From IMG/VR virus record IMGVR_UViG_2718218305_000006: a stretch of DNA of 64,000 nucleotides; one strand, 5' to 3'. A program made the position numbers and the translations under genes. The stretch is from a virus (taxonomy: Duplodnaviria; Heunggongvirae; Uroviricota; Caudoviricetes). The notes under the pieces are model-generated. The model saw nothing but the letters and a program-made list of their open reading frames with translations. It was not told where the DNA came from and searched no databases. Shown here one piece after another: positions 28,987 to 29,346 of this stretch (position 1 is its first letter; each line of letters begins with the position of its first letter).

Positions 28987-29346
28987 ATGCGTATAGAGTT
29001 TGTTTTGCCTTACCCGCCGACGGTGAACACCTACTGGCGACGTCGTGGCAGCACATATTTTGTATCAAAAGCCGGTGAGCGTTATCGCCGGGATGTGGCA
29101 CTTATTGTTCGCCAGCAGCGGCTGAAATTAAACCTGTCCGGAAGGCTGGCGATAAAGATTATTGCAGAGCCACCGGATAAGCGCCGTCGTGACCTGGACA
29201 ATATCCTGAAAGCACCACTGGATGCGCTGACGCATGCCGGACTTCTCATAGACGACGAGCAGTTTGATGAAATCAATATTGTGCGCGGCTAGCTCGTTTC
29301 TGGTGGGCGGCTGGGCGTGAAGATTTACAAAATTGAAAGTGAGTGA
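28987..29346 (+). pseudogene. rusA: RusA Holliday-junction resolvase interrupted by in-frame amber codon (TAG at 29290-29292)
   Basis: N-terminal 101 aa RusA-like (..DKRRRDLDNILKAPLDALTHAGLLIDDEQ..); after TAG the same frame continues LVSGGRLGVKIYKIESE* matching RusA C-terminus pattern. Confidence 0.55.

What the first reader, a model, noticed from the sequence alone, without database searches (positions are those of the whole stretch)
28987..29346. rusA resolvase gene interrupted by a single in-frame amber codon
The RusA-like frame hits TAG at 29290-29292 and then continues in the same frame for 17 codons (LVSGGRLGVKIYKIESE) resembling the RusA C-terminus, ending where Q begins. This is a point nonsense mutation rather than a deletion: either a recent pseudogene or an amber-suppressor-dependent gene.
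Basis: seen in the sequence. Interest (0 to 1): 0.45.

Follow-up and report, generated by a model that had tools for sequence, protein, structure and literature searches.

The report
Nonsense-truncated rusA in O157:H7 prophage Sp11
The Holliday-junction resolvase gene rusA of a defective E. coli O157:H7 prophage carries a real C-to-T mutation that turns glutamine codon 102 into a stop codon; this looks like ordinary recent decay of a redundant prophage gene, not a special coding device.

Summary
The RusA frame (28987-) stops at TAG 29290-29292 and stays open for 17 more codons to the ancestral TGA at 29344-29346.

The window is 100% identical to E. coli O157:H7 Sakai prophage Sp11 and to EDL933. 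The closest intact allele has CAG (Gln102) and differs from the window by this one base over 446 bp.

The exact TAG 90-mer occurs in 259 complete genomes, so it is not a sequencing error. The CAG 90-mer occurs in 124 genomes. These include the same prophage in earlier-branching O157 (493/89, LSU61, the beta-glucuronidase-positive PV15-279), so the mutation is derived and probably arose on the branch to typical O157:H7.

The 101-aa product keeps the catalytic Asp/Lys/Arg residues. It loses the fourth strand of RusA's four-stranded sheet and four highly conserved residues, so loss of function is likely but inferred.

No suppressor tRNA was found: none in the window, and Sakai glnV/glnX are wild type (CTG).

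Sp11 is defective (repressor, integrase and exonuclease disrupted), and Sp12, about 50 kb away, has a full-length rusA.

Verdict: a recent nonsense pseudogene that the Sakai and EDL933 records annotate as a normal 101-aa CDS. Ordinary, low interest.

The parts
28975..28980 (+). Shine-Dalgarno-like AAGAGG, 6 nt upstream of the rusA ATG
   Evidence: Read directly from the sequence.
28987..29289 (+). Truncated rusA coding part: 101 sense codons (ECs_2194 / WP_001217444.1). It retains R68, D69, D71, K75 and D90, which correspond to K-12 R69, D70, D72, K76 and D91.
   Evidence: ORF list and translation. Pfam RusA PF05866 at 58.1 bits against a cutoff of 22.8, covering model positions 1-109 of 124. 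Alignment to 1Q8R. Annotated as a CDS in the Sakai and EDL933 records.
29290..29292 (+). Amber codon TAG, derived from CAG (Gln102) by a C->T change at 29290. The next base is C (UAG-C).
   Evidence: DNA alignment with intact alleles. SNP list. 259 records carry the exact TAG 90-mer and 124 carry the CAG 90-mer.
29293..29346 (+). Orphaned 3' end of rusA: 17 codons (LVSGGRLGVKIYKIESE) plus the ancestral TGA stop. It encodes the beta3-beta4 turn and strand beta4.
   Evidence: Translation. All 54 bases are identical to the intact alleles. The AlphaFold2 model places a strand at residues 109-115. G106, G107, R108 and I113 are conserved in at least 90% of homologues.
27925..28974 (+). Upstream DUF968 gene (ECs_2195), the usual left neighbour of this rusA type
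   Evidence: Pfam DUF968 at 259 bits. Annotation. The same neighbour is present in all related loci.
29355..29909 (+). Downstream DUF1133 / Q-like antiterminator gene (ECs_2193). An alternative in-frame GTG at 29343 overlaps the old rusA stop.
   Evidence: Pfam DUF1133 at 349 bits and Phage_antitermQ at 33 bits. ORF list. Annotation.
29669..29669 (+). The only other SNP between 26746 and 31500 that separates the window from all six CAG-allele loci compared. It is C->T and synonymous in the Q-like gene.
   Evidence: SNP list. The protein accession WP_000640035.1 is the same in both allele groups.

Best explanation
This is a recent nonsense mutation specific to one lineage. A single C->T transition changed CAG (Gln102) to TAG in the rusA gene of the defective lambdoid prophage Sp11. 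It probably arose on the branch leading to typical E. coli O157:H7 (clonal complex A6) and is now carried by that clone.

Translation ends at residue 101. The product keeps the metal-binding aspartates and the basic DNA-binding and catalytic residues. It lacks the last beta-strand of the four-stranded sheet, and that sheet forms the RusA dimer interface. The protein is therefore most likely misfolded or inactive (inferred, not shown).

The loss is probably tolerated for three reasons. Sp11 cannot excise or propagate. Its RecE-type exonuclease is already a pseudogene. The chromosome also carries other rusA-like copies, including a full-length one in the adjacent prophage Sp12, and the host has its own RuvABC pathway (the last point is from general knowledge).

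The 17-codon tail is still intact simply because too little time has passed for further decay.
For: Shown:
- The stop and the in-frame tail are present.
- The window is 100% identical to Sakai Sp11 and to EDL933.
- One base over 446 bp separates it from the intact 119-aa allele.
- The exact TAG 90-mer is in 259 complete genomes. Every serotype-labelled row among those displayed is O157.
- The CAG 90-mer is in 124 genomes. These include O145:H28, O111, O103, O121 and O45 strains, and the same prophage context in O157 493/89 (which matches the sorbitol-fermenting German clone, CC A4; strain identity from my own knowledge), LSU61, F3113 and PV15-279 (beta-glucuronidase-positive, CC A5).
- Only two shared SNPs, both C->T, one of them synonymous, occur in about 4.8 kb.
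- The tail encodes strand 109-115 of a model that matches 1Q8R at TM 0.85.
- RusA is a four-stranded sheet plus two helices, with the dimer interface formed between the sheets (PMC1636454).
- The tail holds four residues conserved in at least 90% of homologues.
- 112 of the 120 best cluster representatives extend through it.
- Sp11 is defective and is not excised or packaged (PMC2669165). Its integrase and exonuclease are annotated pseudogenes.
- Sp12 carries a full-length rusA, and O157 genomes have up to 8 rusA-like places.
- No suppressor tRNA was found.
Against: Loss of function is inferred from the fold, not measured. All catalytic residues are retained, so residual or altered activity is possible.

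The Sakai and EDL933 RefSeq records annotate the 101-aa ORF as an ordinary CDS.

The UAG is followed by C, a weaker termination context (PMC5289835). Gln is a documented near-cognate insertion at UAG (PMC4333366). A small amount of wild-type protein may therefore still be made.

Only 60 of the 124 CAG-allele records were inspected, so fixation in every typical O157:H7 strain is not proven.
Confidence: 0.85

Rival explanations
1. The truncated 101-aa RusA is still functional or has a new function. For example, it could be a weakened resolvase, a junction-binding protein, or a dominant-negative partner that forms heterodimers with the other RusA paralogues in the cell.
For: R68, D69, D71, K75 and D90 (K-12 R69, D70, D72, K76, D91) all lie before the stop. 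The ORF scores well above the Pfam cutoff (58.1 against 22.8 bits). The Sp12 paralogue is 97% identical over residues 1-101, so heterodimers are conceivable. The allele is stably carried by 259 genomes.
Against: One of four sheet strands and the conserved GGR...I motif are missing, and the sheet forms the dimer interface. Full-length forms dominate the family. The few short representatives look like contig-end partials or frameshifts. Persistence in a clonal lineage is expected for a neutral mutation. Only 2 SNPs occur in about 4.8 kb.
Confidence: 0.08
2. The amber is a leaky stop. Ordinary tRNA-Gln(CUG) misreads UAG-C at low frequency and re-inserts Gln102. The gene would then still supply a trickle of wild-type RusA, making this an attenuated gene rather than a dead one.
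For: The ancestral codon is CAG. Gln is a documented near-cognate insertion at UAG in E. coli (PMC4333366). +4C is linked to less efficient termination (PMC5289835). The tail is undamaged.
Against: No stimulatory RNA structure lies downstream (z-score 0.68). The stop is absent from all diverged homologues, so it is not a conserved read-through site. With RF1 present, basal read-through is expected to be well below about 1% (general knowledge, not measured here). The tail is intact because the mutation is young, not necessarily because it is used.
Confidence: 0.05
3. The gene depends on an amber suppressor: a tRNA with a CUA anticodon in the host or a prophage decodes the TAG.
For: None was found.
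Against: The window's only tRNAs are Ile/Met(CAT) and Arg(TCT). Sakai glnV and glnX have CTG anticodons by both annotation and ARAGORN. An exact supE-type glnV is present in 155 records, and the 60 listed are all laboratory strains or have K-12-sized (4.5-4.8 Mb) chromosomes. The Sp12 tRNAs are Ile(CAT), Arg(TCG) and Arg(TCT).
Confidence: 0.01
4. The TAG is a sequencing or assembly error.
For: None.
Against: The exact TAG 90-mer is present in 259 complete genomes from many laboratories and sequencing platforms. Matches of 100% over 1201 bp include Sakai, EDL933, EC4115, TW14359 and Xuzhou21.
Confidence: 0.01

Closest known systems
E. coli K-12 RusA (DLP12 prophage; PDB 1Q8R, 2H8C, 2H8E), Pfam PF05866
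   Same: Same family. The read-through sequence aligns to it without gaps (E 1.6e-22). It has the same catalytic Asp triad, Lys and Arg. A model of a 96%-identical full-length homologue matches 1Q8R at TM 0.85. It has the same position in a lambdoid prophage, upstream of the late antiterminator.
   Different: The gene here stops at the position equivalent to K-12 Pro103, so the product lacks the last strand (K-12 residues 103-120). Foldseek reports 37-38% identity between that model and K-12 RusA.
Intact allele WP_001217447.1 (119 aa), found in the same prophage type in O157 493/89, LSU61, F3113 and PV15-279 and in O145:H28, O111 and O103 strains
   Same: Identical at every base of the 360-bp gene except 29290. 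The flanking genes are identical: DUF968 WP_001265229.1 and DUF1133 WP_000640035.1.
   Different: It has CAG (Gln102) where the window has TAG, so it encodes the full 119 aa.
Sp12 paralogue ECs_2268 (Sakai), about 50 kb from the Sp11 copy
   Same: Full-length rusA with the same DUF968 left neighbour. It is identical to the Sp11 copy over the first 300 nt apart from 2 bases.
   Different: It has a sense codon (CAG) at position 102. Its C-terminal 15 residues differ and it sits next to a different Q gene (a mosaic joint). It carries G107E at a highly conserved glycine.
Other decayed genes of the O157 Sakai 'defective prophage pool' (Asadulghani et al. 2009, PMC2669165)
   Same: Same element (Sp11) and same process. 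The repressor, integrase and recombination functions are scored defective. The prophage is not excised, replicated or packaged.
   Different: That paper does not mention rusA or this stop codon. The terms 'Rus', 'Holliday', 'resolvase', 'nonsense' and 'amber' each gave 0 hits.

Membership tests
RusA Holliday-junction resolvase (Pfam PF05866) | Sequence match to the family profile above the curated threshold | tested here: met
   The 101-aa ORF scores 58.1 bits against a cutoff of 22.8 (model positions 1-109 of 124). With the tail it scores 59.9 bits (positions 1-123 of 124). phmmer against 1Q8R gives E 1.6e-22.
RusA Holliday-junction resolvase (Pfam PF05866) | Catalytic acidic triad (K-12 D70, D72, D91) plus Lys76 and Arg69 | tested here: met
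   The aligned residues D69, D71, D90, K75 and R68 are present before the stop. Residues 67-72, K75 and D90 are invariant in the 46-sequence alignment. The residue roles come from PMC1636454 and the references it cites.
RusA Holliday-junction resolvase (Pfam PF05866) | [quoted passage not shown] | tested here: not met
   The encoded product ends at residue 101. Strand 4 (residues 109-115 in the AlphaFold2 model; pLDDT 82.7; TM 0.85 to 1Q8R) lies after the stop. The fold description comes from PMC1636454.
RusA Holliday-junction resolvase (Pfam PF05866) | Homodimer that cleaves Holliday junctions and suppresses ruv mutants | not testable with these tools
   This needs biochemistry or genetic complementation.
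RusA Holliday-junction resolvase (Pfam PF05866) | Lambdoid nin-region context, immediately upstream of the late antiterminator | tested here: met
   The order DUF968 - rusA - DUF1133/Q-like - tRNAs - lysis genes is seen in the Sakai and EDL933 annotation.
Recent unitary pseudogene (nonsense allele) | Premature stop relative to full-length orthologues, with a sense codon in outgroups | tested here: met
   CAG is present in 124 records, including earlier-branching O157 lineages with the same prophage. TAG is present in 259 records.
Recent unitary pseudogene (nonsense allele) | Sits in an element that shows other signs of relaxed selection | tested here: met
   The Sp11 integrase and exonuclease are annotated pseudogenes. 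The repressor is disrupted and the prophage is immobile (PMC2669165).
Recent unitary pseudogene (nonsense allele) | Actual loss of function of the product | not testable with these tools
   Only inferred, from the loss of strand 4 and of conserved residues.
Suppressor-dependent or programmed read-through gene | A cognate suppressor tRNA (CUA anticodon) is available | tested here: not met
   None in the window. Sakai glnV and glnX have CTG. The Sp12 tRNAs are not suppressors. The rest of the genome was not scanned.
Suppressor-dependent or programmed read-through gene | The in-frame stop is conserved among diverged homologues | tested here: not met
   All other alleles and 45 homologues have a sense codon at this column, mostly Gln, with some Leu, Lys, Glu, Val and Ser.
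Suppressor-dependent or programmed read-through gene | A stimulatory RNA structure or context downstream of the stop | tested here: inconclusive
   No structure beyond shuffled controls (z 0.68). The +4 base is C, a weaker termination context (PMC5289835).

The most novel reading that the evidence does not exclude
The amber is not a dead end but an attenuator. In the UAG-C context, wild-type tRNA-Gln(CUG) occasionally reads the stop and restores exactly the ancestral Gln102. Sp11 would then still supply trace amounts of authentic RusA. Alternatively, the abundant 101-aa fragment could act as a dominant-negative partner of the other RusA paralogues in O157:H7, tuning recombination among its many near-identical prophages.
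Probability: 0.05. Interest if true: 0.35.

Novelty: already known. Interest (0 to 1): 0.1.

Why it matters
It matters little biologically. It is one more decayed gene in the well-described defective prophage pool of E. coli O157:H7.

It has three small practical uses:
- The Sakai and EDL933 records list the 101-aa ORF (ECs_2194 / WP_001217444.1) as a normal RusA-family CDS, although it is a truncated allele of the 119-aa WP_001217447.1.
- The SNP at 29290 may be a clean marker separating typical O157:H7 (CC A6) from the sorbitol-fermenting (A4), LSU61 and beta-glucuronidase-positive (A5) lineages. This holds if the uninspected CAG records contain no A6 strains.
- It gives a natural pair of alleles for testing whether RusA needs its last beta-strand.

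Tried and rejected
- Sequencing error: rejected. The exact TAG 90-mer is in 259 complete genomes.
- supE-type suppressor: rejected for Sakai (glnV and glnX are CTG). The 60 listed of 155 exact supE matches are all laboratory strains or have K-12-sized (4.5-4.8 Mb) chromosomes. The other 95 were not seen.
- Suppressor tRNA in the window or in Sp12: none.
- Second rusA copy in the window that could confuse the comparison: none by tblastn.
- Read-through-stimulating or start-site-masking RNA structure between the amber and the Q-like start: none. The minimum free energy is -25.3 kcal/mol against a shuffle mean of -27.5, z 0.68.
- Dcm deamination hot spot: rejected. The ancestral context GGCCAGCTC contains CCAGC, not CCWGG (read).
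- Rho polarity on the Q-like gene: judged unlikely. Only 62 untranslated nt lie between the amber and ATG 29355, and they are G-rich rather than C-rich. This is inference and was not tested.
- Isolated phages carrying this allele: none. The best match in the phage collection is 93% identical, and all matches there are full-length rusA.
- Literature on this stop codon: searches found no paper that mentions it.
- A second structure prediction of the truncated protein was not run, because AlphaFold does not report folding stability.

Full report
**1. The observation**

The sequence is as described. An ORF with a good ribosome-binding site (AAGAGG at 28975-28980) starts at ATG 28987 and runs for 101 codons to TAG at 29290-29292. 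The same frame then stays open for 17 codons (LVSGGRLGVKIYKIESE) up to TGA at 29344-29346.

A 17-codon open stretch is not remarkable in itself; its chance is about 0.44. The homology is what counts. With the stop read through, the protein aligns without a gap to crystallised E. coli K-12 RusA (1Q8R residues 6-117, E 1.6e-22). The Pfam RusA match grows from model positions 1-109 to 1-123 of 124.

**2. Where the window comes from**

A 1201-bp stretch around the gene is 100% identical to many E. coli O157:H7 chromosomes, including Sakai, EDL933, EC4115, TW14359 and Xuzhou21. In Sakai it lies in 'prophage Sp11, lambda-like phage'.

The gene is ECs_2194 'phage endonuclease'. In the RefSeq annotation of EDL933 it is WP_001217444.1 'RusA family crossover junction endodeoxyribonuclease'. 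Both records list it as an ordinary 306-nt CDS, not as a pseudogene.

Its neighbours are a DUF968 gene upstream and a DUF1133 / Q-like antiterminator downstream. The antiterminator's ATG is at 29355, 8 nt after the old rusA stop. Further downstream come an AraC-type regulator, tRNA-Ile(CAT) and tRNA-Arg(TCT), and the lysis genes. The window contains no second rusA.

**3. What the change is**

The closest intact alleles are in strains 2015C-3163 and 99E2750 and encode WP_001217447.1 (119 aa). They differ from the window by exactly one base over 446 aligned bases: C instead of T at 29290, that is CAG (Gln102) instead of TAG. More distant alleles (O111:H2, O166:H15, strain 07_3986, phage Evi) also have a sense codon there. 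So do all 45 homologues in a protein alignment.

This is therefore a nonsense point mutation with no insertion or deletion. The ancestral context (GGCCAGCTC) is not a Dcm site.

**4. How widespread it is, and when it arose**

- The exact 90-mer centred on TAG occurs in 259 records from the collection of 5,426 complete E. coli genomes. Every serotype-labelled row displayed is O157.
- The same 90-mer with CAG occurs in 124 records. These include O145:H28, O111:H-, O103:H2, O121:H19 and O45:H2 strains.
- Four O157 strains carry CAG in the same prophage context, with identical DUF968, Q-like, YgiW-like and AraC-type neighbours: 493/89, LSU61, F3113 and PV15-279.
- PV15-279 belongs to the beta-glucuronidase-positive O157:H7 cluster (clonal complex A5). 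In the stepwise model, the sorbitol-fermenting German clone is CC A4, and typical O157:H7 (A6) emerged from A5 (PMC6256406). Strain 493/89 (Germany) matches that German clone; this identification rests on my own knowledge.
- LSU-61 is described as an intermediate in that evolutionary model (PMC3309690).
- F3113 groups with PV15-279 by its pO157 plasmid (PMC10758439).

The amber therefore most likely arose on the branch leading to typical O157:H7 and has been inherited clonally since. Between window positions 26746 and 31500, only two SNPs are shared against all six CAG-allele loci compared: the amber and a synonymous C->T at 29669. That is what neutral drift would give.

The 259 independent assemblies also dispose of the sequencing-error explanation. 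Only 60 of the 124 CAG records were displayed, so I cannot say that no typical O157:H7 strain retains CAG.

**5. What the truncation removes**

- An AlphaFold2 model of a 96%-identical full-length homologue has mean pLDDT 82.7. It shows strands at residues 2-7, 54-60, 93-100 and 109-115, and helices at 28-43 and 70-83.
- The model matches RusA crystal structures at TM 0.85-0.86 over 116-119 aligned columns.
- The stop at codon 102 (K-12 position Pro103) removes the beta3-beta4 turn and the whole fourth strand. It also removes four residues conserved in at least 90% of homologues: G106, G107, R108 and I113.
- The catalytic and DNA-binding residues are retained: R68, D69, D71, K75 and D90, equivalent to K-12 R69, D70, D72, K76 and D91.
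- Of the 120 best cluster representatives, only 8 end before position 112. They look like contig-end partials or frameshifted tails.

I infer, but cannot show, that the 101-aa product is unstable or inactive.

**6. Suppressor and read-through hypotheses**

The window's only tRNAs are Ile/Met(CAT) and Arg(TCT). The Sp12 cluster adds Arg(TCG). In Sakai, glnV and glnX both carry CTG, by annotation and by ARAGORN. A supE-type glnV(CUA) 75-mer is exact in 155 records, and the 60 listed are all laboratory strains or carry K-12-sized (4.5-4.8 Mb) chromosomes. The stop is not conserved in any diverged homologue. No RNA structure beyond shuffled controls lies downstream (z 0.68). Suppressor dependence is therefore not supported.

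A residual possibility is basal leakiness. The stop is followed by C, a context linked to weaker termination (PMC5289835). Gln is a documented near-cognate insertion at UAG in E. coli (PMC4333366). Any such event would recreate the wild-type protein. Nothing suggests that this is more than noise.

**7. Why the loss is tolerated**

- Asadulghani et al. score Sp11 as defective in repressor, integration and general recombination. They found that it is not excised, replicated or packaged (PMC2669165).
- The Sakai record marks the Sp11 integrase and exonuclease as pseudogenes.
- The adjacent prophage Sp12 carries a full-length rusA, ECs_2268. It is identical to the Sp11 copy over the first 300 nt apart from two bases, and it diverges from codon 101 onward, where a mosaic joint lies.
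- O157 genomes hold up to eight rusA-like places.
- No isolated phage in the phage collection carries this allele.

**8. Comparison with what is known, and verdict**

By sequence, catalytic residues and genomic position the gene is a member of the RusA family. Its encoded product fails the 'complete fold' criterion.

It is best filed as a young, single-hit nonsense pseudogene in a decaying prophage. I found no paper that mentions this stop codon. The sequence and its 101-aa product have nevertheless been in public records since the O157 genomes were published, and the phenomenon is ordinary.

Interest is low. The small practical points are the unflagged truncation in the Sakai and EDL933 annotation, a candidate lineage-marking SNP, and a natural test case for whether RusA needs its last strand.

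Noticed in passing
window 29669: This is a second derived C->T SNP that the window shows against all six CAG-allele loci compared. It is synonymous in the DUF1133 Q-like gene. Together with 29290 it is the only such difference between 26746 and 31500.
   Followed up: yes
L015:13769-14128 (Sakai 2241768-2242127, prophage Sp12; outside the window): The Sp12 paralogue of rusA (ECs_2268) is full length. It is identical to the Sp11 copy for 300 nt apart from 2 bases (A55V, A80V), then diverges from codon 101 onward, indicating a mosaic recombination joint at the amber position. It carries G107E at a glycine conserved in at least 90% of homologues, so this copy may not be fully active either.
   Followed up: partly
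window 30467-31180: An AraC-type helix-turn-helix regulator gene sits between the Q-like gene and the tRNAs. The Sakai record annotates a 588-nt CDS (ECs_2191), while the RefSeq annotation of EDL933 gives a 714-nt CDS (WP_000301797.1), so the start codon is unsettled.
   Followed up: no
window 31209-31284 and 31385-31461: These are prophage-borne tRNA genes. ARAGORN calls the first tRNA-Met(CAT), but both genome records annotate it as tRNA-Ile (ileZ, CAT anticodon). The second is tRNA-Arg(TCT) (argO).
   Followed up: no
window 27925-28974: The DUF968 gene upstream of rusA gives a weak match to a putative HNH nuclease profile (HNHc_6, E 1.4e-4, 21.9 bits, below the 26.6 cutoff). Its C-terminus has Cys/His motifs. 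It is the constant left neighbour of this rusA type in all loci examined.
   Followed up: no
window about 17062-18839 (- strand; Sakai 2202273-2204050): The Sp11 exonuclease (ECs_2216) and integrase (ECs_2217) are annotated pseudogenes. The Sp11/Sp12 junction lies at about window 17023/17024. IS629, a partial IS256-family element and an IS66-family element, together with nleG pseudogenes, lie in the Sp12 end of the window (about 1-17000).
   Followed up: partly
window 26911-27529: Cargo genes sit in the nin region upstream of rusA: a Hok/Gef toxin gene (about 26911-27066) and a YgiW/YdeI-family stress-tolerance gene (27185-27529). They are conserved in all Sp11-type loci examined.
   Followed up: no
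window 29343-29357: The Q-like gene has two possible starts: a GTG at 29343 that overlaps the ancestral rusA stop (GTGA), and the annotated ATG at 29355. No strong Shine-Dalgarno sequence is evident. Its translation may normally be coupled to rusA, and the amber 62 nt upstream could weaken that coupling.
   Followed up: partly
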